Source: Candidatus Adlerbacteria bacterium (GTDB lineage Bacteria; Patescibacteriota; Minisyncoccia; Phycocordibacterales; SBAW01). Taken from it: a stretch of 64,000 bases of DNA. The notes under the pieces were generated by a model. It was given only the letters and a program-made list of their open reading frames with translations. It was not told where the DNA came from and ran no database searches. Positions 5,357 to 62,632 of the stretch are shown in pieces; the first letter of the stretch is position 1, and each line of letters begins with the position of its first letter. The stretch covers positions 3,925-67,924 of the forward strand of contig CAINNF010000018.1 of NCBI GenBank assembly GCA_903851045.1. The letters are read 5' to 3'. The position numbers and the translations under genes were made by a program.

Positions 5357-5496
5357 CCAACTCTAGGTTACAGTATGATGTATCCTCGCCACTCGGGCGG
5401 GTACGGCCACGGCCTCCTTCGCTGAGTGCCAGTCGGTCAGCGGTGTTTGAAATAGAGCTTTGCGAGGGCCGCGGCCTCCTTCGCTCAAGCTACGAA

Positions 5497-5568
5497 GGCC
5501 ACGTAGTCAAGTGGTAAGACGAGAGTCTGCAAAACTCTTACGCGCGGGTTCGATTCCCGCCGTGGCCT
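5497..5568 (+). tRNA. tRNA-Cys (GCA)
   Basis: Hand fold: acceptor GGCCACG/CGTGGCC, anticodon stem AGAGT/ACTCT, loop CTGCAAA, T-arm GCGGG-TTCGATT-CCCGC. Confidence 0.8.
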
Positions 5569-5660
5569 CCCGAGCATATGTGTGTACAATAGGGTTACTG
5601 TTCGCTGCCGTAACAGCTGTGGCGGACTACGCCTCACTGCGCGAAAGCTTCGAGGGGTAA

Positions 5661-5744
5661 TGCCGGGGTGATGGAATGGTAGACATAGGGGACTTAAAAT
5701 CCCCAGACCTAATCGGTCGTGAGGGTTCGAGTCCCTCCCCCGGC
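5661..5744 (+). tRNA. tRNA-Leu (TAA), type II long variable arm
   Basis: Acceptor GCCGGGG/CCCCGGC, anticodon loop CTTAAAA, T-arm GAGGG-TTCGAGT-CCCTC. Confidence 0.85.
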
Positions 5745-6099
5745 ACCTTAAACGAACTGAATGGTTTTGAATGCAAATGCAATTCGAGCGACTTCTTGGA
5801 AAGTAACAGCTTTGCTTTTTCAAAACGATAAATTTCTTTTTCAATATCTTGGTCAAGATAACCATTAAGAAGTCGCTCTAACTTTTTCGACAAAGAAAAA
5901 ATCTTTTCTTCTTTGTCTTTCACACAAGCAATCAAAGACGGGGTGGAGTTTTTGTAGTCATCTAACGCCAAACGATTGAGTTCCTCCGACGGAAATGGTA
6001 AATATAAAAATGAGATTGAGTATAAGGGAGTTGAAAAATGTGTTATAATATTTCTAATAGTTGTATTACTAGAGTAAATCATATATGCCAGATTAAATT

Positions 6100-7587
6100 A
6101 TGAAAAAGGAGGATGAATGGTTAGTTGAGTTTTTTAAACATTTTGAGACGATACTTGCACCAAAGAGGTCAGAACTAAAGGATTGGTCTAAGGCAGCAGA
6201 TTTCCATGTCTTCAGCACGTTCTTAATCAAAGATATTCAAGAAATTCAAGAGTATTTGAAAAATGCCGATGACCAGTATCTTTATTATGTTTGTAGGCAT
6301 ATTTTTAATATTATAGATTGGATCAAACTTATGATTGTTTCTGGTCTTTCAAATTTTGGTATTGCTTTTGAAAACGTTTTTGATAAGCAATTTGGAGATA
6401 AATACATTCTGCAAAATTTGTATGATGCTTGTTTTGAAAAGTGGATTTCTCAAAAGAAAGGGCAATGGAAAATTGGAGAAAATTTTTATAACATTCTCGA
6501 TTGTAAGTTATATTACCGCAACCATTTTGGAGAGTGGTTTGAAGTCGAAAGAAGAACGGCCTTTGACCTTCTACCAGACAAAAAGCTTCTTGAAAACAAT
6601 TATTTAATCGAACAATTGAATAGCGAATGCAAAGAAACTTGGTACGATGCAATAATCAGAAAATGGGAAGATAAAAAATATCAGGGAGTACTACCAGATA
6701 ATTTTTTGAAATTTAATAAGGAAGAAACGAGTCCCGAAGAATATTCTGATTTTACAATTGAGAACATTAAAACATTAATAAAAAATCCGGTATCAATTGC
6801 GGAACTGGAACGCTGGAATAACGGCAAGATTTTGGATATAGAACACATCGTGAAAATAGCTTCTGGTGTATTAGAAATGGTAACAAAAAGGAGAGAAGAT
6901 AATTGTCATACTATATATCTTTTACGAGACTGTCTAGTGTTCTATGAAGTACACAAGACCATTGACCTCTTAAATTCGGAGCAGACTTCCGCTGATCAAA
7001 TATTGATTGGACGAAAATTACTCACACATGAATTAAGAGAATGGGGGTATTATGTAGTAACACTCGAATCTCTTTATATAGCTCATGACCGCTATCCAGA
7101 AAATTTTAGAGATTTCTACAATGAGTATGCAAGACTACTGGATATGTTCGTCTCTTTAAATCCAGGATTCGCAACTATTATATCTAATCTTGCTGAGTAC
7201 ATATCGGAACATATTCAAACAGACACAAATAAAATAGTTGTTTTCGACATAGGATTTCAAGGATCGATAGCACTATTAACAAAGTACATAATAGATCGCC
7301 ATATCAAGTCAAATGCCCCCAACAAAACAATGGAAACAGATGTGAAAATTGGTGTGGGTGCCGAATGGTCTAAGGGTTTGTTTGGAGATAGATATGAGAA
7401 TGACTGTTTTCCATTTCTAAATCGTTTGCAATTAATGGCAAGAAGTGATGAATTATTTCACTATAAACTGGGAAGTCTACATTCAGGTAAACTCCAGATT
7501 GTAATGGGTGATAAAGAATCGCAACATAAAGCTACCGTTGAACTTGTTGTTCTTGTAATGGTGACTCTATTGGCACAGAGTGAGTAA
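6100..7587 (+). CDS. hypothetical protein (island cargo), 495 aa
   Basis: Long clean ORF in the AT-rich island; no motif recognised. Confidence 0.5.
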   Translation: MKKEDEWLVEFFKHFETILAPKRSELKDWSKAADFHVFSTFLIKDIQEIQEYLKNADDQYLYYVCRHIFNIIDWIKLMIVSGLSNFGIAFENVFDKQFGDKYILQNLYDACFEKWISQKKGQWKIGENFYNILDCKLYYRNHFGEWFEVERRTAFDLLPDKKLLENNYLIEQLNSECKETWYDAIIRKWEDKKYQGVLPDNFLKFNKEETSPEEYSDFTIENIKTLIKNPVSIAELERWNNGKILDIEHIVKIASGVLEMVTKRREDNCHTIYLLRDCLVFYEVHKTIDLLNSEQTSADQILIGRKLLTHELREWGYYVVTLESLYIAHDRYPENFRDFYNEYARLLDMFVSLNPGFATIISNLAEYISEHIQTDTNKIVVFDIGFQGSIALLTKYIIDRHIKSNAPNKTMETDVKIGVGAEWSKGLFGDRYENDCFPFLNRLQLMARSDELFHYKLGSLHSGKLQIVMGDKESQHKATVELVVLVMVTLLAQSE

Positions 7588-7791
7588 AAAGGATATTGCT
7601 ACTATATCCAAGTTAATTTTGATGGTTTGGTTTTGACTTTCTTGGTGCATACACACCGATTTTTTTTGCAAACCGCACAAATATTATTCGCTGACATATT
7701 GGTGGGTTTCACCACATCACCATTATTTTTTTTCTGTTCGTCACTCATATTGTTTAATTATTTTAAATAAGGGTAATGCCTAGATAAACGT

Positions 7792-8763
7792 CTATTTTGT
7801 TTTGAAATTATCCAATATAGCGCAACTTTCCCGAATGTATTTCTTTGACCTCTCTAAATTTGCTGGGAGGGTCGAAACCATATGCCCTGATGAATCAGTC
7901 TGTGCGTCAGCGGGTTTTAGACGTCCTTGCGCATCAATAGCGATGCCTGGAAACTCTTTGGCTATTGGCTCAAGTAGATTCACTGAATCTGGTCCCAAAC
8001 CCCCTGCCACTGCAAGACCTAAATATGGAAGTTTACTATGGATTAATCTCAGCAAAGGGAGAAGTTCTCCCGCATCCATACCCTTTCCCTTTCCCATACT
8101 CATGTCTATCAAGGCAAAATCAATTGAATCACCGTACTCACGAAGTCGGTTCACTACTTCCTGAGGATCGCCATCAACAGCTCTTATTGCGAATTTTCCA
8201 AGTTGTAAGATAATGACAATATTTGGATTTCTCTCTTTAAACTTGCTCATTTCATCAGGATCTGGCCAGGTGACATCAAGTTGAATTGCGTGGAGATTTT
8301 TTCCTCCATATTGAACACATAATTCAAGATTTTTAAGGATGTCTGGAGATTCTTTAGCTTCCCATGGTCCGTTTGGGCCATATAAGTCAGCATAATGTAT
8401 AGTATTCAAAACATCTGGGTCATCAGTAAATCCATTTGCCATTTCTTCCGTGGTTGGAAACTCTTTACTTACTTCTTCGCGTACTTTCGGAGGAACCGGT
8501 AAATCAGGATTCAAAACAATAGGATGTGTCATGACCCCAACCATAATCTTCCGATCTGGATTTTTTCTATTTAGTCGAAGCTCATCAGCCATGGCTCGGG
8601 CTTGCTCAGGACTAAATACATCACAAACACCGGAATAACGATCGCGTTCCATGTTATGCAATTGTTCTTCGGCATCGGCATAATTTTTTGCCCTTCCTGA
8701 TTCAACTTTCTCTCGAAGCATCTCTGCTTCTTTTTGTGCTACTCTTTGTGAGTATTTTTCCAT
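7792..8763 (-). CDS. hypothetical protein (island cargo), 323 aa
   Basis: Long clean ORF; contains ALIDMSMGKGKG and LAVAGGLGPD, no confident family. Confidence 0.5.
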   Translation of the reverse strand: MEKYSQRVAQKEAEMLREKVESGRAKNYADAEEQLHNMERDRYSGVCDVFSPEQARAMADELRLNRKNPDRKIMVGVMTHPIVLNPDLPVPPKVREEVSKEFPTTEEMANGFTDDPDVLNTIHYADLYGPNGPWEAKESPDILKNLELCVQYGGKNLHAIQLDVTWPDPDEMSKFKERNPNIVIILQLGKFAIRAVDGDPQEVVNRLREYGDSIDFALIDMSMGKGKGMDAGELLPLLRLIHSKLPYLGLAVAGGLGPDSVNLLEPIAKEFPGIAIDAQGRLKPADAQTDSSGHMVSTLPANLERSKKYIRESCAILDNFKTK

Positions 8764-8811
8764 TTTAAGATTATAACTTTAAGATTATAACATGGTTCCG
8801 AAAGTCATACA

Positions 8812-8918
8812 TGTTGCCCGCCCGCACTCATTCCCCAGACCCCTTTCTGTGGGCGGGAAATGCAGTCTCGGTTTTGCCAAATCCATATCCCCAGAAAATA
8901 GTTTGGCAAAACCGAGTC
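8812..8918 (+). repeat. conserved structured element copy L1 (second copy at 62404..62500)
   Basis: Shared CATTCC-CCAGACCCCTYCTGYGGGCGGGAAATSCAG then a 9-13 bp stem (CTCGGTTTTGCCA/TGGCAAAACCGAG here) around the conserved loop AATCCATNTCCCCAGA..GTTT. Confidence 0.5.
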
Positions 8919-9239
8919 CATCAAATTGAAACTAGAATTCCGTCAGTTTCTCCCTTATGAGAAACCCGACCTCGCTCTCGCCACCACCATACCGAAAAAA
9001 GAAAAAAGAAAGCGCGCCAAATCAAAACAGAATGTGTGGTGGCGAGGCGAGGACGGAACAGCAGGAGAGGAAGAATAATGTCGTACTCGACAGTATTCTG
9101 GAACGGACGCTGGGCCGTGACGGAATTCATCGTGAAGCGTACGATTACATTTCACATTACCACACGCTCTGTGCGTGCGACATCATTACTCATTGATTTT
9201 TAAAACAGGTTCGGATTTGGTAAGATAAACGCACATCGT

Positions 9240-10109
9240 ATGCATCGCTATGACCACCGTTTGTTCGTGACCGAACTCCCCGAAGGGTTTACTTCGCGCC
9301 ACCAGTGGCCAGAATTTGCAGAACAGTATCAGTGGCCACCATTCTTTCATGCGACACCGGTGGGTGCGTATCCACGGGGTATGCGTCGTGGCCTGTGGCC
9401 GATTATTCTTGAAGAGTATGTCAGCGACGACGAGCCGCCGCTGGGATATGTAGACGAGACTGCGCCGAATCGTGTCATCCTGTGGCAACGCCTGACCCGA
9501 ACAGACATCCCACGTGGGTGGAGCGCACCGTCGCGTCACCCGGCGATGCTCGAAGGGTTCGCAGAGATTGTCCCTGGCGAAGACTATACTGCGCGCTGGT
9601 CAAAAATCGCTCGGCAGGAACGTAAGGCGTGTGCCGAGGCGTTCGAGCGCGGTCTCTTCGCGATAGAGCAACTCGACTGGGAGACGTTCGAGCGAGTATA
9701 CAGAGCGAGTACGACTATAGAGAAGGCAGGTCTCGGGGCCCTGGCTATCTTGAAGAGAAAATGGTTCGCCAACTCAACGCACATTATGCTGTGGGGCGCT
9801 CGAAATCTTCGTACGGGAGAAGTTGTCGCGGCCGTGGGTGTCGTCAACTCCCCGTCTCATCAGGCGTCCTACTATGCGGCCGGATGCAAGAGAGCGCACC
9901 TTGAGTATCCACTGGTCGTGGGGCTGCTCGCACATTGGTACGAGGTGTCTCAGGCGGCGGGGATTCGCTTCCTCCATTTCGGCGTGTTTTGGATACCCGG
10001 CAAGCCAAAGTCATGGCAGGGCTTCTCGACGTTCAAGATGAAGTTGCGTCCAAAGCTCGTGCTCTACCCGCCAACACTCGTACGATTCAAGCGTGGTACA
10101 CTGTGGTGA
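9240..10109 (+). CDS. FemAB/BioF2-like GNAT-fold acyltransferase (putative)
   Basis: C-terminal ASYYAAGCKRAHLEYPLVVGLLAHWYEVSQAAGIRFLHFGV resembles the FemAB family C-terminus. Confidence 0.35.
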   Translation: MHRYDHRLFVTELPEGFTSRHQWPEFAEQYQWPPFFHATPVGAYPRGMRRGLWPIILEEYVSDDEPPLGYVDETAPNRVILWQRLTRTDIPRGWSAPSRHPAMLEGFAEIVPGEDYTARWSKIARQERKACAEAFERGLFAIEQLDWETFERVYRASTTIEKAGLGALAILKRKWFANSTHIMLWGARNLRTGEVVAAVGVVNSPSHQASYYAAGCKRAHLEYPLVVGLLAHWYEVSQAAGIRFLHFGVFWIPGKPKSWQGFSTFKMKLRPKLVLYPPTLVRFKRGTLW

Positions 10110-10770
10110 CTTATTTTGTATGTGGCGACTTTTTTCGAAGAAAAAGATACCTTCCTCGCAGCACGGTGAGATAACGATCGAGCGCTTCTTCGGTCGGGTC
10201 GTCGTGCGTGCTGGCGGCGTACAACAGACAGGCAGTAAGGTCGATGAGATCTGGCGCTCTGCCCTACAAAGGCTCGAGAAGGCCTTCGGACAACCGCCGC
10301 GTGTGCTCTTACTCGGCCTAGGAGCAGGCGGCGTCGTCAAAGAGCTGCATACCATCTTCCCCGGTTGTACGGTCACCACGGTCGAGCACGACCCCCATAT
10401 GATCGCGATTACCCGCGAACTGCGGCTTTATGCGCCCTTCCCAGAGCCAGCTATCATCGAGGGCGACGCGGGAGAGGTCATCGCACACCATCCCGACCAC
10501 TTCGATCTTGTTCTCGTCGATCTCTACGACGGTCGCGTTGCTTCGCCGCTGGTGTCCCACGAGACGTTCCTACGCGACATCAAACACCATCTTCGACCGG
10601 GAGGGATCATGCTTATGAACATCTTCTCGTCAGAACCCGAGCGCATGCGCACGGCACAAGAGGTGTTCGGCACCTATGCCCACTGGCCGCACGCCGCCAA
10701 CACCATCGGTGTTTTTTGGGATACACCCACGCCGCACGCGAACACGGTTGTAAAAGACGATATTCTGTAG
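10093..10770 (+). CDS. spermidine synthase-like class I SAM-dependent methyltransferase-fold protein
   Basis: VLLLGLGAGGVVKEL (motif I), VLVDLYDG, GGIMLMN. True start uncertain. Confidence 0.45.
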   Translation: MVHCGDLFCMWRLFSKKKIPSSQHGEITIERFFGRVVVRAGGVQQTGSKVDEIWRSALQRLEKAFGQPPRVLLLGLGAGGVVKELHTIFPGCTVTTVEHDPHMIAITRELRLYAPFPEPAIIEGDAGEVIAHHPDHFDLVLVDLYDGRVASPLVSHETFLRDIKHHLRPGGIMLMNIFSSEPERMRTAQEVFGTYAHWPHAANTIGVFWDTPTPHANTVVKDDIL

Positions 10771-10814
10771 TACTTTTACACACAAGTGGAGCGAAGCGAT
10801 TCGTCACCATATTC

Positions 10815-10887
10815 CCGCCCATAGCTCAGTTGGTAGAGCAACTCCCTCTTAAGGAGATGGTCCCAGGTTCGAGCCCTGGTGGGCGGA
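10815..10887 (+). tRNA. tRNA-Lys (CTT)
   Basis: Acceptor CCGCCCA/TGGGCGG, D-arm GCTC-AGTTGGTA-GAGC, anticodon loop CTCTTAA, T-arm CCAGG-TTCGAGC-CCTGG. Confidence 0.8.
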
Positions 10888-10891
10888 CAAA

Positions 10892-11212
10892 TTGACTTTT
10901 ATTTATTTTTGTGATAACATATTTTTTAAGTTAGTACATTGCACTCAAAAAAAGAAGGAGGTCAAAACAATGGCTGTCTTTGGTGGGACTCATATGGCTT
11001 TTCATCCACGACATGGTACACGTGCTAGCTACTGTATTGTTGCGGCACTAAACAGAGAGGAAGCTCTGAATATTGGTTTGAGAATTGCACATGACCGGTT
11101 TCCTCCTGACGAAGACTGGGTAAACCATGAAGTGGGCATGAATGAGATTTCGCGAGAGAACTTGAACCTCCTGTCTCAAAACGCTAGAACTCAGGAGGAA
11201 ATCGGGAGTTAG
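10892..11212 (+). CDS. hypothetical small protein (likely starts at internal MAVFGG, ~10970)
   Basis: ORF only; lower-GC stretch after tRNA-Lys. Confidence 0.25.
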   Translation: MTFIYFCDNIFFKLVHCTQKKKEVKTMAVFGGTHMAFHPRHGTRASYCIVAALNREEALNIGLRIAHDRFPPDEDWVNHEVGMNEISRENLNLLSQNARTQEEIGS

Positions 11213-11366
11213 CCTCGACCGAACCATCAAGCTGCCTACTCGTGAACATTTACGAGTAGGCGGCTTTTTATTTACTCAAAACCATTCCTATCTCGAACCA
11301 GATCCAGAGGGCCGATAATTTGACAACATAAGTATAATATGTAACAATATAACCAGTGTTGAGGAG

Positions 11367-11591
11367 GTGTTTATGATTACCCAGGACCAGCTCGAGGTCG
11401 CTACCCAAATCGCGAGGGCCGCGATGAAGGGTTCCGTTTACAAACCCTTGACGGAAGAGTGGATGGGTGAGCTCCGCAGTATTGGCTATAAACTTGCCCG
11501 CGTGGCTGGCCTGATATGGGACGAAAGCGCGCTGGAAGACTTTCGTCAGGCGATCGTCGATACTGTCAGGCGCCAGGAGCAAACCGCGTAG
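11367..11591 (+). CDS. hypothetical small protein (74 aa)
   Basis: ORF preceded by GAGGAGG RBS (tgaggaggtgtttATG). Confidence 0.35.
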   Translation: MFMITQDQLEVATQIARAAMKGSVYKPLTEEWMGELRSIGYKLARVAGLIWDESALEDFRQAIVDTVRRQEQTA

Positions 11592-27985: not shown

Positions 27986-28127
27986 AGTAATTTAGATTAA
28001 TTTTTACAAGCTACTACTAACTAATACGGGAGAAAGGGGCAATTAGGTGCTCTTCACGTCCCTACAACTGTTAATACGCCCACGGGACAAAAAAACTTTC
28101 ATCCCCAATTCATTAAAAGCTGGCTGG

Positions 28128-28433
28128 CTAATGAATGATATTAAAAGCCATAGATACAACGGTTATGACAAGTAGAGTAATACCCGCCATAAAAGAGTAG
28201 TCTGCAATATCTCGATATCGGGCAACGCGGGAGGCATCGTGACGCATGGAAATATAGGAATAAATGATGCTTATTGAAAGAAGAACTGAGGAAACTGCGG
28301 CAACCTCGTCTAAAATTGTTGAATTTGCAACACCGCTTACCCGGAGCCCGGTAATGATTATCAGACAAACCCCAATAAGGTTTGCGGCCGATTGCAGTAT
28401 GTGTGACGTGGCTTCTTTTTTGTATTCGCTCAT
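28128..28433 (-). CDS. small polytopic membrane protein
   Basis: ORF with three hydrophobic segments. Confidence 0.35.
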   Translation of the reverse strand: MSEYKKEATSHILQSAANLIGVCLIIITGLRVSGVANSTILDEVAAVSSVLLSISIIYSYISMRHDASRVARYRDIADYSFMAGITLLVITVVSMAFNIIH

Positions 28434-28760
28434 ATTTTTATTTGTTAATACTGCTTGTAACTATCAGTTTTAGCAAAAGAGGCCCCTATTGGAGGTCTCT
28501 TTTGCAAAAGTTCATAGTGTTTTTTGTACCAATTGTTTTTGAGTAGAGAGTCGACGAACGCATGTGGGCCGTAAAGAGTATTGCTATCCAATCAAGCGAG
28601 TAAGTACCTAATTACAAACCGGCTTGGGGGTGCGACACTCGCGGGCAATATTGTAGTAACAATAAGTTCGCTCGAGTCCAACAGTTGCAAGTGGTTGATT
28701 ACTAGTAATGCCTCGACCTGCACTTACTACTACGCGAGCAAACAAAAATTCCTTTCAAAG

Positions 28761-29447
28761 CTACTGCTCCCAGTTATGCACTGAGCGTGCAATAAATACA
28801 CTCGTCGAAGATTCAAGCAAACCAAACATTCGTATTGTGGAACTTGCGACGGGGACAAACGAGCCTGTGGATGTTGCGACCCGAACCTTCCAAGTACGGC
28901 CGTTAAAGTCAGTAACAGAAAAATTGTTGTTATCCTGGATTGAAGTGATGACTCCAGCCAACCTTCCCACAACCGGACGGCTATATGCTTCTCCCGAATC
29001 CAGCACCAACGAATCGTAGAGCGGTATGGTATTCAAAAATTCATGAGTAATTTTCCCAACACCAAAGAAGTTGAGGATTGAGCCGAAAATAATACTCAGA
29101 ATCACACAACCCAAAACCATCACTCGTATCGGGTACCTGTATCCCTTCTTTGTGTGTTTAAGTCCGATTCGTGCAATTACTATGAATAACACGAGCGCAA
29201 TAATCCAAAGAAACGGTACCATCGCGAGAAAATCAATCACATCATGGGGCATCGCCCATAGACCGTGTTTATGGAAATCAACAAAAAGGTACAGCATCAC
29301 TCCAACGGAAAAACCACCAAGGAGTAGGGAGAGTGCGGCACACAGCCAGTAAAACACTCGCCATACGAGAAAGCGCCAACGCGGAATCGAAATAATCTGA
29401 TCCTTCTCAATCCGTCCCATTATTTTGTTTGATAGTTCTTCGCTCAT
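28761..29447 (-). CDS. putative anti-sigma factor (membrane protein co-transcribed after ECF sigma)
   Basis: Start overlaps sigma stop (ATGA); N-terminal cytoplasmic segment then multiple TM helices. Confidence 0.45.
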   Translation of the reverse strand: MSEELSNKIMGRIEKDQIISIPRWRFLVWRVFYWLCAALSLLLGGFSVGVMLYLFVDFHKHGLWAMPHDVIDFLAMVPFLWIIALVLFIVIARIGLKHTKKGYRYPIRVMVLGCVILSIIFGSILNFFGVGKITHEFLNTIPLYDSLVLDSGEAYSRPVVGRLAGVITSIQDNNNFSVTDFNGRTWKVRVATSTGSFVPVASSTIRMFGLLESSTSVFIARSVHNWEQ

Positions 29448-30028
29448 ATGGTTGTCATCCCTTTGGCTTCCAGCGCAGTTTTTAATTCTTTTTTCCCTCG
29501 GTTGATAAGTGTTGCAACGGTACCCTCCGGCATTTTTAAAATGTCGCTAATCTCAGTATAGCTTTTCTCTTCAAGAAAACGGAGAACAAAAACCTCCTTG
29601 TATTTTGGATCAAGCTCAGAAAGAAGACTCTGTACAAGACGGGCATCGTCTCGTTTATGAGTAAGTTCAACAAAATCAGTCTCATCTGCTAACTGCTCAA
29701 AAAACACGTCCGTGTCCTCTGCGCTTAAGTTTAGTACGCGGGGGCGGACTTTTTTCTTTCTAAGAAACGAAACGGTCTCATTATGAGCTATGCGATAGAG
29801 CCATGATGAAAACTTAAGGCCGGAATCATAGTCATTGAGATTAATAAATACCTTGATGAAAATCTCTTGTAGTACGTCGTCTACGTCACCGTCATCAATA
29901 CCTCCTAAACGTTTACAGTAGCGGCGGATAGGGGCCTCGTACCTATGAACAATCTCTGAAAAAGCCTGCTTATCGGTAAGAGCGGCAGCGACTAATTCTT
30001 GGTCTGTTTTTGTTGATTCTACATTCAT
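29444..30028 (-). CDS. ECF-family RNA polymerase sigma-70 factor
   Basis: Region 2 (VLQEIFIKVF...FSSWLYRIAHNETVSFLRKKK) and region 4 HTH (YTEISDILKMPEGTVATLINRGKKELK). Confidence 0.85.
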   Translation of the reverse strand: MNVESTKTDQELVAAALTDKQAFSEIVHRYEAPIRRYCKRLGGIDDGDVDDVLQEIFIKVFINLNDYDSGLKFSSWLYRIAHNETVSFLRKKKVRPRVLNLSAEDTDVFFEQLADETDFVELTHKRDDARLVQSLLSELDPKYKEVFVLRFLEEKSYTEISDILKMPEGTVATLINRGKKELKTALEAKGMTTI

Positions 30029-30198
30029 GTAACTAAAAGTCGATATCGAGGAGCCCTGGGAGCATAACTGGCTCTGGATACTTCTTGTCGCAGAAAGCTG
30101 ACTCCTCTTTATACTAGCAATCTTGACCTTTTCTTACCAACTTCGAGGGCATTCGGACGCTCTGGACTCCTTAAGGGGTCTGCGTCATCTCTTGAGGT

Positions 30199-31530
30199 AT
30201 GGAACAAATAGCAACAAGGCCCGGTTTGGGAGACACAAGGAGGCAACCCATAGCCCAGCCAGTACGAGTTAGATATTGCCTCTATGCAAGAAAGAGTACC
30301 GAGTCAGAAGAAAGACAGGTCCTTTCTATCGATTCGCAGATCAAGGAGATGCTCCAGTTGGCCGACCGTGAGGGGCTGGAGATAGTCGAATTGAAACGAG
30401 AGAGTCACTCGGCAAAAGAGACTGGGCAGCGACCTGTTTTTAACGAAATAGTAGATGAGCTAAAAGCTGGCAAATATAACGGCATACTCACGTGGGCACC
30501 AGATCGTATTAGCCGCAATGCTGGAGATCTTGGAAAGATAGTAGACCTGATGGATGCGGGGACACTTCAGGAAATACGTACTCATAGTCAAAGTTTTAGG
30601 AATAACCCCAACGAAAAGTTCCTTCTGATGATTCTCGGGTCGCAAGCGAAGCTCGAAAACGATAACCGAGGCGTAAATGTTAAGCGTGGGCTACGGACAC
30701 GCTGCGAAATGGGCCTTAGGCCGGGGGTTGCCCCAGTGGGATATTCAAATGAGAAACACGCCGACCGTAAATGTCACGCGGTTATCGACGAACTGCGCGC
30801 ACCCGTAATCAAGCAAATGTTTGAGAAAGTGGCGAACGAGCAATGGAGTGGCAGGAAATTGTACCAATGGCTGAAATTCGACCTCAACTTCAAAAGTAGG
30901 GCAAACAAAAACATGACGTTGAGTAGTGTCTACGTGGTACTTCAAAACCCCTTCTACTATGGCGTATTCGAGTATCCAGAAAAGAGCGGCAACTGGTACG
31001 ACGGCAAACATCAACCTCTTATCACCAAGGAGCTGTTCGATAAAGCGCAGGAGCAACTCAAACGAGACCGCATCCTGCGCTCCGATATTAAGGAGTTTGC
31101 CTTTATTAAGCTCATGTTATGTGGGGCTTGCGGCTCGGGCATTACAGCGGAGGAGAAGTTTAAGAAACTAAAGGACGGCACCTCAAACCGCTACGTGTAC
31201 TACGGCTGCACCCGTGCGAGGGACAAGGACTGCAAGAACGGTTACGTACGGGAGGAAGAGTTGATTACTCAGACGGTCAAAATTATGGACCACATCGACC
31301 TCAACAACATCAGCATGCGGGAAAAATTCGAGGCAGAGGTAGACCGTATGCGAAAGTTTCAACGCGCATTCACTGCCACGACAACGGATGCAAAACCGCA
31401 AAAAGAAATCGACCTGCGCGGCTACGCTAAGTATTTACTCAAGGAAGGGAGTGTGACGGAGAAGCGCGAGTTGCTGCTCTGTATTAAGAGCAAGTTGGTA
31501 CTCGACAAGGGAACTCTGAGATTGGAGTAG
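30199..31530 (+). CDS. large serine recombinase (resolvase/invertase N-domain + recombinase + zinc-ribbon)
   Basis: VRYCLYARKSTESEERQVLSIDSQ (catalytic Ser region), ...WAPDRISRN; C-terminal CGACGS...YYGCTRAR zinc ribbon. Confidence 0.85.
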   Translation: MEQIATRPGLGDTRRQPIAQPVRVRYCLYARKSTESEERQVLSIDSQIKEMLQLADREGLEIVELKRESHSAKETGQRPVFNEIVDELKAGKYNGILTWAPDRISRNAGDLGKIVDLMDAGTLQEIRTHSQSFRNNPNEKFLLMILGSQAKLENDNRGVNVKRGLRTRCEMGLRPGVAPVGYSNEKHADRKCHAVIDELRAPVIKQMFEKVANEQWSGRKLYQWLKFDLNFKSRANKNMTLSSVYVVLQNPFYYGVFEYPEKSGNWYDGKHQPLITKELFDKAQEQLKRDRILRSDIKEFAFIKLMLCGACGSGITAEEKFKKLKDGTSNRYVYYGCTRARDKDCKNGYVREEELITQTVKIMDHIDLNNISMREKFEAEVDRMRKFQRAFTATTTDAKPQKEIDLRGYAKYLLKEGSVTEKRELLLCIKSKLVLDKGTLRLE

Positions 31531-44292: not shown

Positions 44293-44796
44293 ATGACGAG
44301 GTCCACACTTACACATATCGAGATCCAAGCCAACCTAGGCACCGAAAAAGTACCTCTCGATAAGGAGACACTGAGGTCGGCATATTTGAGGCACTCCTAT
44401 GGAGACGCCGATCTGATCTTCAAGAGACATTATAGGCGTAAATACGGAGGCACCATCACCTTTGGCGTTGCCCAGGCGAAAGATGTAGCGAAAGGACGAC
44501 TCACTCGCTACAACATCTTGGAGAGTCTCCGGGAACAGCGTTTCCGACCCTGTACATTCATGGACGCTCCATTCCTTGCGCTGTATTGCGACACTCACCA
44601 GGCACAGAAGATTCTTCTTCCTCCAGGCGAATACATAACGGTCATGGAATTGATCGAGCATCCACTTGAGAACTGGGAGCCGTTCTACCTTCAACTCGGA
44701 GTCGCACAGGGTGGGTGGTTTAGCTTTTCGGACGTCGCAGATCCAGAGAGACTCCCCCTAAACCCGACCGATTGGGTCCTGTTCAAGAAAGCCTAA
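44293..44796 (+). CDS. array ORF E, hypothetical (167 aa)
   Basis: Clean ORF, AAAGGAGACGCAGG RBS; bracketed by junction J7. Confidence 0.45.
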   Translation: MTRSTLTHIEIQANLGTEKVPLDKETLRSAYLRHSYGDADLIFKRHYRRKYGGTITFGVAQAKDVAKGRLTRYNILESLREQRFRPCTFMDAPFLALYCDTHQAQKILLPPGEYITVMELIEHPLENWEPFYLQLGVAQGGWFSFSDVADPERLPLNPTDWVLFKKA

Positions 44797-44805
44797 CAAA
44801 GCCAT

Positions 44806-44898
44806 CCCCGCCGGAGAGACCCAAAAGGTCCCCGGCGGGATTTCTTTTTGCACAAGGTTTATCCTTGAATAAGGGTTACCCTTGGATACTTACACCAC
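44806..44898 (+). repeat. array junction J7: CCCCGCCGGAGAGACCCAAAAGGTCCCCGGCGGG + T-tract + TGCACAAGGTTTATCCTTGAATAAGGGTTACCCTTGGATACTTACACCAC
   Basis: Carries both palindrome variants (ACAAGGTTTATCCTTG and CAAGGGTTACCCTTG). Confidence 0.65.
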
Positions 44899-44945
44899 TT
44901 TTTTTGCTATTTAATCGTAACTGTCCACATTTCCTTTCTCCTCTA

Positions 44946-45200
44946 TTATTTGAGTTTCTGAGCTATAACGCGAATGTTATGATCAAGAGTCGGAAGAGCC
45001 ATATTTATCTGTGCTTCAATTTTTTTTACTTCCTTCTCCAGAGCCTTTATTGAGGTGTGAAGGTCGTAAAATGGTACAACGCCAACAGGCGTACCACAAC
45101 TAACACACTGAACAAAGTACATTTTGAAATTCGCTCCAACTGGCGCAACCTCAGCTAATTCAAAATTCATCCATCCACACTTTCCACATTTTGATACCAT
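44946..45200 (-). CDS. zinc-ribbon hypothetical protein
   Basis: CGKCGW...CVSCGTP. Confidence 0.4.
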   Translation of the reverse strand: MVSKCGKCGWMNFELAEVAPVGANFKMYFVQCVSCGTPVGVVPFYDLHTSIKALEKEVKKIEAQINMALPTLDHNIRVIAQKLK

Positions 45201-45224
45201 ACATTTATTTGTAGTTAATATTGT

Positions 45225-45407
45225 TTATAATCCAAGCTTTGAACGGAGAGCTGCACCACCAAGAAGGTATGCAGCGGTGTTCATGACCTGAGTTGCTTGC
45301 GTAGGGGCTTTCCAAAAAAGCAACGCCACGATACACAGCGTCAGCGAGTAGGTAATAACTCTGGCCGCAGTATTTACGAAGTGCTTATTTTGGAGAAGCT
45401 CTTTCAT
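45225..45407 (-). CDS. small membrane protein
   Basis: ORF only; one TM. Confidence 0.25.
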   Translation of the reverse strand: MKELLQNKHFVNTAARVITYSLTLCIVALLFWKAPTQATQVMNTAAYLLGGAALRSKLGL

Positions 45408-45408
45408 G

Positions 45409-45897
45409 TTACTTTTGCAGCCCTCTTAAATAATCAAGCCCTTTCTTTTGGCTATGGAACATACCTCCTATTTTTTTAACAAAGGCGTTACGCATATTAC
45501 GAGCATTAAATGCGCCGAAGTTCTTCGCCTCGATACGATCCTTCAGTTCACTTGAGAGAAAATCTATTTCACCTGAGTTAAGACCCTTTACTCCATTTTG
45601 TTCAGCATATTCTAAAAGCCATATTATCTTGTCAGTTTTTGTTGGCAATTCGTAATAACCAGGATAGCCTTCTAGGGCTGTGGAGATAGGGAGTTCTCTG
45701 ATTTCTGCGCGGACACCGCGACCGGCAAACCCACGCCGTTCAGCAACAAACTGCTTCATAGGCTCACCCGATAGGGGGGGTAGAAGGGTGCTTTGTTCCT
45801 GACCTAACAGACTTATAATTTGACCCGCACGCTGCTGCGTAATCACCTTTTCAAAGGAAAATCCTTCGCCAAGAATTGTTAATTTTATTTCGCTCAT
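45409..45897 (-). CDS. hypothetical protein (162 aa)
   Basis: Clean ORF; stop/start abut downstream gene. Confidence 0.45.
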   Translation of the reverse strand: MSEIKLTILGEGFSFEKVITQQRAGQIISLLGQEQSTLLPPLSGEPMKQFVAERRGFAGRGVRAEIRELPISTALEGYPGYYELPTKTDKIIWLLEYAEQNGVKGLNSGEIDFLSSELKDRIEAKNFGAFNARNMRNAFVKKIGGMFHSQKKGLDYLRGLQK

Positions 45898-46000
45898 TTT
45901 TATACCACGTTAGCGTGATATATAAATAATATCATACCTAGTCTTGCGAATAAATCCTACTAGAGTAGTCGAGACTCTTTTTTTGTGTGTGTCAACTACA

Positions 46001-60493: not shown

Positions 60494-60522
60494 TCGTCCA
60501 GTATACTATATAAGAATTCCGG

Positions 60523-60594
60523 TGACCTCACGGGGAATCGAACCCCGATTTACGCCGTGAAAGGGCGCTGTCCTAACCGTTAGACGATGAGGCC
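60523..60594 (-). tRNA. tRNA-Glu (TTC)
   Basis: Reverse complement GGCCTCA..., anticodon loop CTTTCAC, T-arm CGGGG-TTCGATT-CCCCG, acceptor TGAGGTC. Confidence 0.8.
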
Positions 60595-60703
60595 GTTAGG
60601 TGCCACTATAGCCTACTCGGCGAAAAAATGCTATTGTAGCGCGTGTTCGATGGGTATAGTATGAAAATGCTATTGGTGTGTAACAACTGGTGTGTAGCAA
60701 CCT

Positions 60704-60790
60704 GGAGAGGTGGCTGAGTGGTCGAAGGCACCGCACTCGAAATGCGGCGTAGGGGTAACCTTACCGAGAGTTCGAATCTCTCCCTCTCCG
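60704..60790 (+). tRNA. tRNA-Ser (CGA), type II, CCA encoded (to 60793)
   Basis: Acceptor GGAGAGG/CCTCTCC, anticodon loop CTCGAAA, long variable arm, T-arm GAGAG-TTCGAAT-CTCTC. Confidence 0.8.
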
Positions 60791-60947
60791 CCAAAATTGA
60801 AAATCGGAATTGGAAGCCGAAATGGGGCCGCGCCGCAGGCGCGACACAAACGCATTACCGCCAGAAATTCGCGAATCCAAAAGGTCTTTCCACGCTCCGC
60901 GTAGCTCAAAAAGTACGGTTCGGGAGTTGGAGGATCAAAAATAAATC

Positions 60948-62342
60948 ATGAACGAAGGAAATTTGAACTATTTTGGACCTCGGATTTCAACTCCTAAACC
61001 GAGAACTTTTGAATTGACTGGTAAAAAAGAGCGAGAAGGCCTGACGCCAGAAGAAGAAGGCGAGCTACGAGGTTTATTTGCCCACCCCGATAATCCAGAA
61101 GCTGCGAGCCTATTGCAAAAAGAATACCTCGCATCGCAAGGAATAGGGCAAATGAGTGATGAGGAACGAGAACGCCTGCGCATTATACGAATGGAAAAAT
61201 ATCGTCGAGAACGTAGAGTAGAACCATCTGAAAATGCACCATCTAAATTAGATGAGAAAAAGCAGGCCGAGGCGAGTGCCGCAGAACTGCACATGCTTTA
61301 TATACAAGCAAAAATTGCCGCACTTAAAGGACACTGGGACGGTCTGCCAAAAGAGGTTATAGATCGAATGATTCAAGCTATTCCTGACGATGTAACCGTT
61401 TATACAAAAGAGACCTTACACTCAATGCCAAAGGATGAGCCGTCCGAAATTGAACTATATTTTTTAAGCAAAATTCAAAATCTTCCCGATTTTAGAAAAG
61501 ATGATAAACCGGAAGGGGCATTGCGTATAATGGAGAGCATTCGTTGTTTACGAGATAAAATAAGAACCAAAAAATTTTTAGCTGGACTTACCGAGGCACT
61601 TAATAATATTGGTTCATCCGAAAAATCCGAAATAGAGATGTGCGATGCTGGTACGGGTGCAATACCAATTTTAGCGATTTATGCGGCACTTTCTTCTGAA
61701 AAGGTTCGATGTACTGCGATTGAGCTCAACCCAAATTCTGCTGCGATTGCAGAAAAAGTTGTAGAAGCTTTCGGATTGCAAGACCGCATTAAAATCTTAC
61801 GAACTGATGCAATAAAATTCGAGCCAGAAAAACAGATTGATTTATTAATTTCCGAAACCATGCATTCTGGCCTAACCGCGGAACCTATGGTGCAGATTCT
61901 CTCAAATCTAAATAAATACTTAAAAGAGGACGGGGTCGCATTACCGAGTGCAGTAAGAATAAAAGCCGCGCTTGTGCCTCTCAATGATTGGACAAGCCCA
62001 AAAGGGTTTGTGAAAATTTATGGCAATTTACATCATGTCGTGTCACCGAACTGGGAAGAGGTCGTACATTATGAACCTGGAGACAATTTGGAAGAAATTG
62101 CATTTAACGTACCGGTCGAAGGTGCACCGAAGGGAAGTTATTTTGTCCTTGTGACAAGTGAGGTGGATATTGGTTCACAACGGATTAACTCCTACCAGTC
62201 GCTTATTACAATGCCTCAGTTTTTGCGAGACGCTAAATCTGATCCAATGATCTTTGATATTAAAGATAGCGATAGTCGTCATTCTATCAGTGTTACATAT
62301 AAGCCAGGAGAAATGTTGGATGGGGTAAGCAGACTTGATTAG
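60948..62342 (+). CDS. class I SAM-dependent methyltransferase-domain protein (464 aa) in a lower-GC island
   Basis: Motif I MCDAGTGAIPILAIYAA; post-I acidic ELNPNS; Glu/Lys-rich N-terminal extension. Confidence 0.5.
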   Translation: MNEGNLNYFGPRISTPKPRTFELTGKKEREGLTPEEEGELRGLFAHPDNPEAASLLQKEYLASQGIGQMSDEERERLRIIRMEKYRRERRVEPSENAPSKLDEKKQAEASAAELHMLYIQAKIAALKGHWDGLPKEVIDRMIQAIPDDVTVYTKETLHSMPKDEPSEIELYFLSKIQNLPDFRKDDKPEGALRIMESIRCLRDKIRTKKFLAGLTEALNNIGSSEKSEIEMCDAGTGAIPILAIYAALSSEKVRCTAIELNPNSAAIAEKVVEAFGLQDRIKILRTDAIKFEPEKQIDLLISETMHSGLTAEPMVQILSNLNKYLKEDGVALPSAVRIKAALVPLNDWTSPKGFVKIYGNLHHVVSPNWEEVVHYEPGDNLEEIAFNVPVEGAPKGSYFVLVTSEVDIGSQRINSYQSLITMPQFLRDAKSDPMIFDIKDSDSRHSISVTYKPGEMLDGVSRLD

Positions 62343-62403
62343 AATTTTGTGAGATCTGCTAGTTTGGTGCCGACGAATTTCCGACAATCCCCAGTCCGAA
62401 ACT

Positions 62404-62500
62404 CGTCCGCATTCCTCCCCAGACCCCTCCTGCGGGCGGGAAATCAGCCGAGGCAGGGCGAATCCATTCCCCCAGACACATTGTTTCGCCCTGCCGAGTC
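62404..62500 (+). repeat. conserved structured element copy L2 (pair of 8812..8918)
   Basis: CATTCCTCCCCAGACCCCTCCTGCGGGCGGGAAATCAG + stem GGCAGGGCG/CGCCCTGCC around loop AATCCATTCCCCCAGACACATTGTTT. Confidence 0.5.
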
Positions 62501-62632
62501 CGCTTTAATCGTTTGGATTTTGCTCGAAATAGTTTCAAACTTTGTTTAACAAACACTGCAGAATGTGCTTATAAACAGTTCGGCGTTATGCGACCATGTA
62601 CGTCAAACGGTGCGTGGTATGCTTGTAGGTAT

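What the first reader, a model, noticed from the sequence alone, without database searches (positions are those of the whole stretch)
5750..8790. Sharp compositional island next to tRNA-Leu with two large orphan proteins
GC falls abruptly from ~60% to strongly AT-rich exactly at the 3' end of tRNA-Leu(TAA). The island carries a 495-aa and a 323-aa ORF with no recognisable motifs, plus a truncated reading frame (6082 down into the tRNA) that may be a gene remnant. This is typical of recent horizontal acquisition; the function of the cargo is unknown.
Basis: seen in the sequence. Interest (0 to 1): 0.55.

Follow-up and report, generated by a model that had tools for sequence, protein, structure and literature searches.

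The report
tRNA-inserted island with conserved enzyme cassette
A 3.5-kb piece of foreign DNA, inserted beside a leucine tRNA gene by a recombinase that has since decayed, carries three genes that travel together among ultra-small (CPR) bacteria and some archaea and probably encode an unstudied phosphoribosyl-transfer pathway.

Summary
GC falls from about 0.57 to 0.32 exactly at the 3' end of tRNA-Leu(taa), and the island's composition is an outlier (GC z = -5.1, tetranucleotide z = 10.4, GC3 0.30 against 0.63-0.73).

The island is a true insertion. A related genome has the same DUF4446-IF2-RbfA-tRNA-Cys-tRNA-Leu order, with the right-flank gene starting under 30 bp after the tRNA. The ends (5746/5747 and about 9235) match the attL and attR arms of a family of CPR elements that use a large serine recombinase and target tRNA 3' ends. 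The "truncated frame" is that recombinase's decayed C-terminus.

The two large proteins are not orphans. With a 48-aa protein between them they form a cassette (A 495 aa, C 48 aa, B 323 aa). A and B lie adjacent in 22 loci from many CPR lineages and three archaeal bins, always in different surroundings, and C or its tail occurs in the 19 bacterial ones. A and B are under purifying selection (dN/dS about 0.1).

No family library covers them. Structure prediction links A to PRPP-dependent ribofuranosyltransferases (CriT/gPRT) and B to phosphoribosylanthranilate isomerase. The likely function, phosphoribosyl transfer followed by isomerisation on an unknown acceptor, is inferred, not shown.

The parts
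5662..5747 (+). tRNA-Leu(taa), the integration target; its 3' end forms the left arm of attL
   Evidence: ARAGORN and Rfam RF00005 at 59 bits. The same tRNA lies directly next to the host 289-aa gene in the empty-site locus L025.
5747..5771 (+). Element terminus (E arm of attL): CTTAAACGAACTGAATGGTTTTGAA, starting right after ...CGGCAC
   Evidence: 23 of 25 bases are identical to the sequence following tRNA-Gly(ccc) in L026, and a related sequence follows the partial tRNA-Leu(cag) copy in L027.
5748..6082 (-). Decayed 3' end of a large serine recombinase (integrase) gene; the called ORF reads on antisense into the tRNA (to 5627)
   Evidence: Homologues at 66-78% identity are C-terminal recombinase pieces, one of them named 'Recombinase, partial'. 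Weak Zn_ribbon_recom hit in P0209. L027 has Resolvase + Recombinase + Zn_ribbon ORFs directly upstream of the homologous piece. Window 5782-5980 is about 80% identical in DNA to L026, with about 265 bp missing.
6006..8777 (.). The transferable cassette unit: A, C and B with their upstream regions
   Evidence: One continuous 2,773-bp blastn alignment at 85.6% identity to L028, where the unit is inverted relative to a different tRNA (Leu-caa); the flanks are unrelated.
6100..7587 (+). Gene A, 495 aa: predicted CriT/gPRT-like PRPP-dependent phosphoribosyl transferase (fold-level assignment)
7602..7748 (-). Gene C, 48 aa: small protein with a CxxCxxxxCxC knuckle and a conserved C-terminal tail ...PSKLTWI (family consensus PPK[ILV]xW[IL]-COOH)
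   Evidence: An equivalent ORF lies between A and B in most bacterial loci. In L013 the tail is fused to B. The three archaeal loci lack it.
7792..8763 (-). Gene B, 323 aa: PRAI/TrpF-like ribulose-phosphate-binding (beta/alpha)8 barrel, predicted sugar-phosphate isomerase
8764..8791 (.). 14-nt tandem duplication TTTAAGATTATAAC x2 directly upstream of B's ATG; each copy carries TATAAT on the minus strand
   Evidence: the repeat finder family D7. Homology to L028 stops at 8777, after the first copy.
8792..9235 (+). Distal element backbone with intermediate GC (~0.47), ending in the X arm (9159-9235) of attR: ...CAGGTTCGGATTTGGTAAGATAAACGCAC
   Evidence: Absent from the empty site L025. 8828-8898 resembles the tRNA-distal edge of the L028 island. 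9159-9235 is homologous to the 119-nt X repeat of L027, which occurs there as X|E and X|F junctions. Perfect 15-bp hairpin at 8867-8916.
9240..10109 (+). Host 289-aa gene (right flank); its ATG lies 4 nt after the attR junction
   Evidence: Host-like GC 0.576 and GC3 0.63. Its homologue starts under 30 bp after tRNA-Leu(taa) in L025.

Best explanation
Window 5747 to about 9235 is a degenerate integrative element. A circular element carrying an attP site (X|E) recombined with the 3' end of tRNA-Leu(taa) (attB = tRNA|host gene), catalysed by its own large serine recombinase. This produced attL (tRNA|E) and attR (X|host). The recombinase gene later lost its catalytic N-terminus and about 265 bp internally, so the island is now immobile.

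Its cargo is a self-contained three-gene cassette, B-C-A, that moves horizontally among CPR bacteria and into DPANN-like archaea and is kept by purifying selection.

Inferred function: A is a CriT/gPRT-type enzyme that transfers ribose-5-phosphate from PRPP to an acceptor. B is a PRAI-like barrel that binds the ribose-5-phosphate product through its phosphate loop and isomerises it (aldose to ketose, Amadori-type), the same two-step logic as TrpD then TrpF. C is a small accessory protein whose invariant C-terminal tail docks onto the enzymes.

Shown: the insertion, the junctions, the recombinase remnant, the cassette's conservation, mobility and selection, and the fold assignments. Inferred: PRPP as donor, the isomerisation step, the identity of the acceptor, and the role of C. 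My confidence is about 0.85-0.9 for the island, element and cassette part and about 0.35 for the biochemical part.
For: Insertion: L025 keeps DUF4446-IF2 (64% identical)-RbfA (60%)-tRNA-Cys-tRNA-Leu(taa), followed within 30 bp by the 289-aa homologue.

Junctions: the window reads tRNA...GGCAC|CTTAAACGAACTG and ...AAACGCAC|(A)TCGT-ATG. L026 has the same E arm after tRNA-Gly(ccc). L027 holds tRNA|F, tRNA'|E, X|E and X|F.

Integrase.

Not an assembly error: the same junctions occur in independent assemblies ERZ1426653, ERZ27313172, SRR8496336 and SRR8496337.

Cassette: A and B are adjacent in all 22 loci examined, and no other neighbour recurs. The B-C-A order holds even where A's orientation flips (L031). 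dN/dS is 0.08-0.12.

Transfer: the copy in L028 is 85.6% identical in DNA. A and B are 78% identical to those of a host whose GyrA is only 60% identical. The archaeal clade nests inside the CPR copies. The cassette has lower GC than its flanks only in higher-GC hosts. Seven of 19 scanned loci sit at a tRNA 3' end (P = 1e-7).

Function. CriT uses PRPP and relies on S678-R679-D680, R708 and E818 plus the 821-825 loop (PMC10299916). A has invariant R276-D277, R305 (the same 28-residue D-to-R spacing) and D383-IGFQGS, each directly after a predicted beta-strand, with a helical insert between the second and third. D126 is the catalytic Asp of TmTrpF (PMC9088769), and B's invariant D220 aligns with the LLD of P. 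furiosus PRAI.

Against: I could not see the residue-level superposition, so the mapping of catalytic residues rests on secondary-structure order and spacing.

The HAD phosphatase that accompanies every characterised gPRT is absent.

The archaeal cassettes lack C, so C cannot be essential to the chemistry.

No intact recombinase of this family was recovered, since every homologue found is 195 aa or shorter. The cassette also lies in opposite orientation relative to the tRNA in L028, so how the cassette itself moves between element backbones is unexplained.
Confidence: 0.72

Rival explanations
1. The cassette is a conflict module (anti-phage defence, toxin, or a weapon or immunity factor used in episymbiosis) and not a metabolic pathway. 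A would modify a target molecule with phosphoribose as a toxic or protective act.
For: It is carried on a mobile island at a tRNA, has a patchy distribution, transfers often and across domains, and always sits in a different context. The small partner protein could be a regulator or antitoxin.
Against: No PADLOC or PHROG match. Absent from IMG/VR, phage and plasmid collections. Both enzymes are under strong, uniform purifying selection, without the diversification typical of conflict genes. No nuclease, protease, NTPase or sensor domains.
Confidence: 0.12
2. A is a genuine glycan ribofuranosyltransferase that decorates a cell-surface polymer with ribose-5-phosphate, as gPRT/CriT do, and B processes the sugar phosphate on that polymer.
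For: The only structural relatives of A are polysaccharide ribofuranosyltransferases (PMC10299916, PMC11294581).
Against: No HAD phosphatase, glycosyltransferase, ABC transporter or other glycan-assembly genes recur near the cassette. A, B and C show no obvious signal peptide or membrane segment by inspection. B resembles small-molecule isomerases most closely.
Confidence: 0.12
3. The AT-rich genes are native and vertically inherited, and their composition reflects function or expression and not foreign origin.
For: A and B are under purifying selection and clearly functional.
Against: Empty site in a syntenic relative; att-type junctions and an integrase remnant; a GC3 gap of 0.3-0.4; the same unit beside other tRNAs in other genomes.
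Confidence: 0.02
4. The island is an assembly or binning chimera joining a low-GC CPR fragment to a high-GC contig.
For: The composition break is very sharp and the data are metagenomic.
Against: Both junctions recur in independently assembled contigs from at least four samples or runs. The junctions fall exactly at recombination arms known from other loci.
Confidence: 0.02
5. The proximity to tRNA genes reflects function, with the cassette acting on tRNA (for example a PRPP-dependent tRNA modification), and not integration.
For: Seven of 19 loci abut a tRNA. PRPP-dependent tRNA ribosylation exists in eukaryotes (Rit1; my own knowledge, not checked here).
Against: The neighbouring tRNAs differ (Leu-taa, Leu-caa, Leu-tag, Gly-tcc, Ser-gga twice, Pro-ggg). 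Either end of the cassette can face the tRNA, and it is always the tRNA's 3' end that faces the cassette. Most loci have no tRNA nearby. The window has explicit att arms.
Confidence: 0.04

Closest known systems
tRNA-associated genomic islands / integrative elements
   Same: Sharp compositional break at a tRNA 3' end, an integrase gene next to the tRNA, attL/attR junctions, an empty site in relatives, and unrelated cargo in different members (L027 carries an MFS transporter plus dCMP deaminase).
   Different: The integrase is a large serine recombinase, not the usual tyrosine integrase (that tyrosine is usual is my own knowledge). Accordingly there is no long direct repeat of the tRNA end, only a shared ...GCAC core. 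The integrase here is reduced to about 110 codons.
CriT domain of H. influenzae Bcs3 (8a0c/8a0m) and gPRT domain of the T. composti ribofuranosyltransferase (7shg)
   Same: They are the only significant structural neighbours of A. Both have an alpha/beta catalytic core with an inserted helical bundle. A has an invariant R-D loop, an Arg 28 residues later, and an acidic residue plus Gly-rich loop in the same order as the PRPP-binding residues of CriT.
   Different: No detectable sequence homology. A has a different, roughly 260-residue N-terminal half with a small beta domain. There is no fused or neighbouring HAD phosphatase and no glycan-assembly context. The donor and acceptor are untested.
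Phosphoribosylanthranilate isomerase (TrpF/PRAI) and the ribulose-phosphate-binding barrel superfamily
   Same: (beta/alpha)8 barrel. Cys at the end of beta1 (GVCDV), Asp at the end of beta6 (LIDMS, aligned to PRAI's LLD), a GxGK loop, AGGLGP on beta7 and DAQG on beta8 parallel the TrpF motifs.
   Different: Below Pfam and NCBIfam thresholds. About 45 variable N-terminal residues and a conserved insertion (GFxDDPDVLNTxHYADLY) that TrpF lacks. No trp genes nearby. Found in organisms that generally lack tryptophan synthesis (my own knowledge).
TrpD then TrpF (and HisG ... HisA) two-step logic
   Same: A PRPP-dependent transferase is paired with a PRAI/HisA-type barrel that would isomerise the phosphoribosyl adduct.
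   Different: The transferase fold is CriT-like, not TrpD- or HisG-like. The acceptor is unknown, and a third small tail-bearing protein is part of the unit.

Membership tests
tRNA-targeted integrative genomic island | Composition departs from that of the host genome | tested here: met
   GC z = -5.1, tetranucleotide z = 10.4, GC3 0.30 against 0.63-0.73.
tRNA-targeted integrative genomic island | Inserted at the 3' end of a tRNA gene, with an unoccupied site in a relative | tested here: met
   L025 has tRNA-Leu(taa) followed within 30 bp by the 289-aa homologue; the window has 3.49 kb between them.
tRNA-targeted integrative genomic island | Recognisable attL and attR junctions | tested here: met
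   The E arm after the tRNA and the X arm before the host gene are homologous to arms in L026 and L027. L027 has all four junction types. There is no long direct repeat, as expected for a serine recombinase (my own knowledge).
tRNA-targeted integrative genomic island | Encodes an integrase | tested here: inconclusive
   Only a decayed C-terminal remnant is present, so the island cannot be autonomously mobile now.
Large serine recombinase | N-terminal Resolvase catalytic domain | tested here: not met
   Absent from the window. It is present (PF00239, E 1.5e-5) in the broken L027 homologue.
Large serine recombinase | Recombinase domain, zinc ribbon and C-terminal coiled coil | tested here: inconclusive
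   The window keeps only the coiled-coil and C-terminal part, identified by 66-78% identity to pieces that carry weak Zn_ribbon_recom hits. There is no Pfam hit on the window fragment itself.
gPRT / CriT PRPP-dependent ribofuranosyltransferase | Characteristic fold (alpha/beta core plus helical bundles) | tested here: met
gPRT / CriT PRPP-dependent ribofuranosyltransferase | Conserved acidic pair (D680/E818) and phosphate-binding residues (R679, R708, loop 821-825) | tested here: inconclusive
   Invariant R276-D277, R305 and D383-x-G-x-x-G-S occupy equivalent positions by strand order and spacing, but no residue-level superposition was available.
gPRT / CriT PRPP-dependent ribofuranosyltransferase | Detectable sequence homology to family members | tested here: not met
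   No hit in Pfam, NCBIfam or PDB profile searches. An exhaustive HMM search found only 45 clusters, none with a known domain that links them.
gPRT / CriT PRPP-dependent ribofuranosyltransferase | Partner HAD phosphoribose phosphatase (PRP/CrpP) | tested here: not met
   There is no HAD domain in A and no recurring neighbour besides B and C.
gPRT / CriT PRPP-dependent ribofuranosyltransferase | Uses PRPP as donor | not testable with these tools
   Needs an enzyme assay.
PRAI / TrpF (PF00697) | Matches the family model | tested here: not met
   No Pfam or NCBIfam hit at E <= 1. The PDB profile hit to PRAI has E = 1.3.
PRAI / TrpF (PF00697) | (beta/alpha)8 barrel closest to PRAI, with a phosphate-binding beta7/beta8 | tested here: met
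PRAI / TrpF (PF00697) | Catalytic Asp on beta6 and Cys on beta1 | tested here: inconclusive
   Invariant D220 aligns with the LLD of P. furiosus PRAI, and D126 is catalytic in TmTrpF (PMC9088769). C47 is near-invariant at the end of beta1. Its equivalence to TrpF Cys7 rests on my own knowledge.
PRAI / TrpF (PF00697) | Tryptophan-operon context | tested here: not met
   No trp genes lie near any of the 22 loci.
Peptide-scaffold or carrier-protein systems (LysW-like, RiPP-like) for C | Small protein with a conserved C-terminus that is the site of chemistry, together with a dedicated ligase or recognition element | tested here: inconclusive
   The tail PPK[ILV]xW[IL] is conserved. But no ATP-grasp, RRE or radical-SAM partner is present, the tail can be fused to B, and the archaeal cassettes lack C altogether.

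The most novel reading that the evidence does not exclude
A-C-B encodes a previously undescribed PRPP-dependent modification system. A would phosphoribosylate an amine, possibly the near-invariant lysine in the C-terminal tail of the small protein C (or of B where the tail is fused). B would fix the adduct by an Amadori-type rearrangement. The result would be a new protein or peptide modification, or a peptide-scaffolded metabolite, shared by horizontal transfer between CPR bacteria and DPANN archaea.
Probability: 0.1. Interest if true: 0.8.

Novelty: new variant of a known kind. Interest (0 to 1): 0.56.

Why it matters
CPR bacteria and DPANN archaea have tiny genomes, yet many of their conserved genes have no known function. 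This work identifies a compact three-gene unit that is strongly conserved (47-84% identity for nearly all copies, down to about 31% for a few divergent A genes), exchanged between the two domains, absent from the family libraries searched (Pfam, NCBIfam, PADLOC, PHROGs), and now has a concrete, testable biochemical hypothesis: PRPP-dependent transfer followed by PRAI-type isomerisation. It also documents a family of serine-recombinase elements that target tRNA 3' ends in CPR genomes, with defined attachment arms. That is useful for tracing gene flow, and possibly for developing genetic tools, in organisms that currently have almost none.

Tried and rejected
- Pfam and NCBIfam scans of A, B, the remnant frame and the 289-aa gene gave nothing meaningful.
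- PADLOC and PHROGs gave nothing.
- IMG/VR, phage and plasmid collections gave no relative of A or B.
- PDB profile searches with full-length A and with its catalytic half alone found no CriT/gPRT hit.
- Pfam on the most distant HMM hits of A gave no linking domain.
- The AlphaFold-database fold library was unavailable.
- I searched for a direct repeat of the tRNA 3' end at the right border and found none longer than 9-10 nt. A shuffle test showed the best match is chance: 146 of 500 shuffles reach it. This rejects a tyrosine-integrase-style att duplication.
- The hypothesis that the conserved distal stretch at 8828-8898 is a decayed tRNA half was rejected by the same test.
- The promoter and terminator scan found no more sites than shuffles do.
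- Rfam found only the two tRNAs.
- L024 has a distant A-like gene without B. Its convergent 268-aa partner is unrelated to B (hhalign probability 0.3), and its neighbours (amino-acid permease, S51 and trypsin-like peptidases) gave no firm lead.
- Source-name look-ups did not reveal the host's taxon.
- Literature searches found no description of this cassette.
Full report
**1. Observation.** ARAGORN places tRNA-Cys at 5496-5571 and tRNA-Leu(taa) at 5662-5747, and Rfam agrees. GC in 100-nt windows is 0.57 at 5651-5750 and 0.32 at 5751-5850. It recovers from 0.32 at 8701-8800 to 0.51 at 8801-8900. Across the 64-kb window, 3-kb windows outside the island average GC 0.528 +/- 0.033. The island 5748-8791 has GC 0.358 (z = -5.1). 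Its tetranucleotide distance from the rest is 0.623 against 0.230 +/- 0.038 (z = 10.4). GC3 is 0.30 in both large genes, against 0.63-0.73 in IF-2, RbfA, the 289-aa gene and a methyltransferase.

**2. It is an insertion.** A scan of metagenome contigs with the host-like 289-aa protein (9240-10109) returned one related contig, L025. L025 encodes a DUF4446 fragment, IF-2 (64% identical), RbfA (60%), tRNA-Cys and tRNA-Leu(taa). The homologue of the 289-aa protein (49% identical) then starts under 30 bp after the tRNA. Synteny is therefore conserved and the site is empty in that relative, so the window has about 3.49 kb of extra DNA. Contigs from at least four independent assemblies contain the same junctions, which argues against a chimera.

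**3. How it got there.** The 151-aa frame that runs into the tRNA has homologues at 66-78% identity. All are 195 aa or shorter, and one is named "Recombinase, partial".
- Their sequences continue upstream into a recombinase zinc-ribbon segment, with weak PF13408 hits.
- Several end in peptides that are antisense translations of tRNA genes.
- In L026 such a frame runs antisense into tRNA-Gly(ccc). In L027 it follows ORFs with Resolvase (E 1.5e-5), Recombinase and Zn-ribbon matches and ends 80 bp before tRNA-Leu(cag).

So this is the C-terminus of a large serine recombinase lying tail-to-tail with a tRNA. At the DNA level, the 25 nt after the window's tRNA-Leu (CTTAAACGAACTGAATGGTTTTGAA) match 23 of 25 nt after L026's tRNA-Gly. 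Window 5782-5980 is about 80% identical to the L026 gene, but about 265 bp in between are missing.

The right end is equally informative. Window 9159-9235 is homologous to a 119-nt sequence X that occurs twice in L027. L027 contains all four junction types: tRNA|F, tRNA'|E, X|E and X|F. Here E is the element end that leads into the recombinase gene and F is the native tRNA flank. The window has tRNA|E at 5746/5747 and X|host at about 9235, 4 nt before the ATG of the 289-aa gene, and L025 has tRNA|host. This is the pattern expected from attP (X|E) x attB (tRNA|host) recombination, with the crossover just after ...GCAC.

No long direct repeat exists. To my knowledge that is usual for serine recombinases. 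L027's element carries different cargo (an MFS transporter and a dCMP deaminase, also low in GC), so this is an element family with variable cargo.

**4. The cargo is a conserved cassette, not orphan genes.**
- B (323 aa) has at least 198 homologues and A (495 aa) at least 86 among 90%-identity clusters, nearly all at 47-84% identity. Where a source gives a name, it is Saccharibacteria, Parcubacteria, Paceibacterota, Yanofskybacteria, Uhrbacteria or "archaeon".
- A and B lie next to each other in all 22 loci examined. No other neighbouring gene family recurs in more than three loci.
- The archaeal identity of L005 is supported by a histone, a form III-type RuBisCO, FtsZ and a Hef-like helicase.

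Between A and B lies a small gene, C (window 7602-7748, 48 aa). It has an N-terminal MxDE..NN motif, usually a CxxCxxxPCxC knuckle, a basic linker, and a C-terminal tail with consensus PPK[ILV]xW[IL]. Some copies lack the cysteines but keep the tail (L019, L011, L029, L031). In L013 there is no C gene and B itself ends in ...DQISWI. The three archaeal loci lack C. In L031 a divergent A (31% identical, motifs intact) lies on the same strand, giving a B-C-A operon.

dN/dS for the window against L028 is 0.12 for A, 0.12 for B and 0.45 for C (few sites). Against L029 it is 0.09 for A and 0.08 for B.

**5. Evidence for repeated transfer.**
- The window and L028 share one 2,773-bp alignment (85.6% identity, window 6006-8777). 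In L028 the unit lies beside tRNA-Leu(caa), inverted relative to the tRNA, in unrelated flanks. L028's A falls in the same 90% cluster as the window's A.
- L029, from a host sharing a methyltransferase-SBP gene pair (with T4SS-pilin genes alongside) with the window but only 60% GyrA identity, has A and B at 78% identity beside tRNA-Leu(tag).
- The cassette has the same GC as its flanks in low-GC hosts and lower GC in higher-GC hosts: L015, L017, L019, L028, L029 and, most extremely, the window.
- In an NJ tree of A (no bootstrap), the three archaeal copies form one clade nested within the bacterial copies, and the Saccharibacteria-labelled copies are scattered.
- Seven of the 19 loci scanned for tRNAs have a tRNA within 360 bp with its 3' end facing the cassette. 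The expected number is 0.42 (binomial P = 1e-7, or 1e-5 ignoring orientation).
- Nothing related was found in IMG/VR, phage or plasmid collections.

**6. What the proteins probably do.** No Pfam, NCBIfam, PADLOC or PHROG family matches A, B or C.

In CriT, S678-R679-D680 (after beta20), S707-R708 (after beta21) and E818 plus loop 821-825 (after beta22, following an inserted helical bundle) bind PRPP. In A, the invariant R276-D277 follow strand 270-274 and the invariant R305 follows strand 298-301. The D-to-R spacing is 28 residues in both proteins. Three helices (316-369) intervene, and then the invariant D383-I-G-F-Q-G-S follows strand 378-383. This correspondence is an inference from order and spacing, because I could not inspect the superposition. 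Sequence-level searches do not connect A to gPRT. An exhaustive HMM search of 1.84 billion representatives found only 45 related clusters.

*Combined hypothesis.* A PRPP-type transferase beside a PRAI-type barrel recalls the TrpD-TrpF and HisG...HisA logic: transfer of ribose-5-phosphate to an acceptor, then isomerisation of the adduct. The acceptor is unknown. C's tail has alternating hydrophobic residues at the carboxy-terminus, can be fused to B, and is dispensable in archaea. That fits a docking or accessory role better than an obligatory substrate.

**7. Verdict.** The island, its mechanism of arrival and the existence of a mobile, selected three-gene cassette are well supported (about 0.85-0.9). 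The biochemical reading is a structured hypothesis (about 0.35). In kind, the island is a known type of feature with an uncommon integrase class. The cargo represents uncharacterised protein families with a testable predicted chemistry.

Noticed in passing
It has a CxxCxxxxCxC knuckle and an invariant-type C-terminal tail. Equivalents occur in 19 of 22 loci, once fused to B.
   Followed up: yes
window 5403-5425, 5465-5487 and 5556-5578: Upstream of tRNA-Cys are two copies, 62 nt apart, of a 19-nt sequence (GGCC[A/G]CGGCCTCCTTCGCT). Its first 12 nt resemble the 3' acceptor strand of tRNA-Cys (GCCGTGGCCTCC). They may be leftover partial tRNA ends from earlier integration or excision events, like the 157-nt tRNA'-plus-flank tandem units in L027. 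The L025 sequence read here (from 2100, the 47 nt before its tRNA-Cys) shows no such copy.
   Followed up: partly
window 8764-8791: Exact 14-nt tandem duplication TTTAAGATTATAAC x2 abutting B's start codon. On the minus strand each copy carries TATAAT, the proximal one ending 6 nt from the ATG, which would suit a leaderless or very short-leader transcript. Homology to L028 ends after the first copy.
   Followed up: partly
window 8867-8916 and 8828-8898: A perfect 15-bp inverted repeat (CTCGGTTTTGCCAAA / TTTGGCAAAACCGAG, 20-nt loop) lies inside a roughly 70-nt non-coding stretch. That stretch is also found at the tRNA-distal edge of the L028 island, even though the cassette is inverted there. 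Its role is unknown.
   Followed up: partly
window 28000-30500, 44500-46000, 60500-63000, 10500-11500: Other, milder low-GC patches (1-kb GC 0.41-0.49 against a mean of 0.53). Two lie next to tRNA genes: tRNA-Lys at 10815-10888, and tRNA-Glu and tRNA-Ser at 60521-60793. They may be further, older insertions.
   Followed up: no
L027 2800-7732: A complex array: a full tRNA-Leu(cag), 157-nt tandem units of flank plus partial tRNA end, 43-nt perfect inverted copies of the element end E flanking a broken serine recombinase gene, and 119-nt perfect inverted copies of arm X flanking low-GC cargo (MFS transporter and dCMP deaminase). It suggests repeated integration and inversion events.
   Followed up: partly
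L005 / L006 / L023 6559-9521: In the archaeal genome the cassette's A gene lies 110 bp downstream of, and co-directional with, a RuBisCO large-subunit gene. That enzyme belongs to the archaeal AMP/ribose-1,5-bisphosphate salvage route, which is PRPP-related chemistry (my own knowledge). A 181-aa ORF replaces C there. This was seen in one organism only.
   Followed up: no
L017 8224-9483; L022 655-1878: The A gene appears truncated (L017, 419 aa) or split into 79 + 322 aa (L022) in two genomes. This is either pseudogenisation or assembly error.
   Followed up: no
homologues of window 5748-6082: All 42 database relatives of the recombinase remnant are 195 aa or shorter. No intact gene of this recombinase family was recovered, so decayed copies next to tRNAs seem to be the common state in CPR genomes.
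   Followed up: partly
L011 and P0098: Cassette-bearing contigs labelled 'uncultured Gammaproteobacteria' (38 kb, GC 0.40) and 'Planctomycetota' (2 kb). These are probably mis-binned, but genuine occurrence outside CPR and DPANN was not excluded.
   Followed up: no
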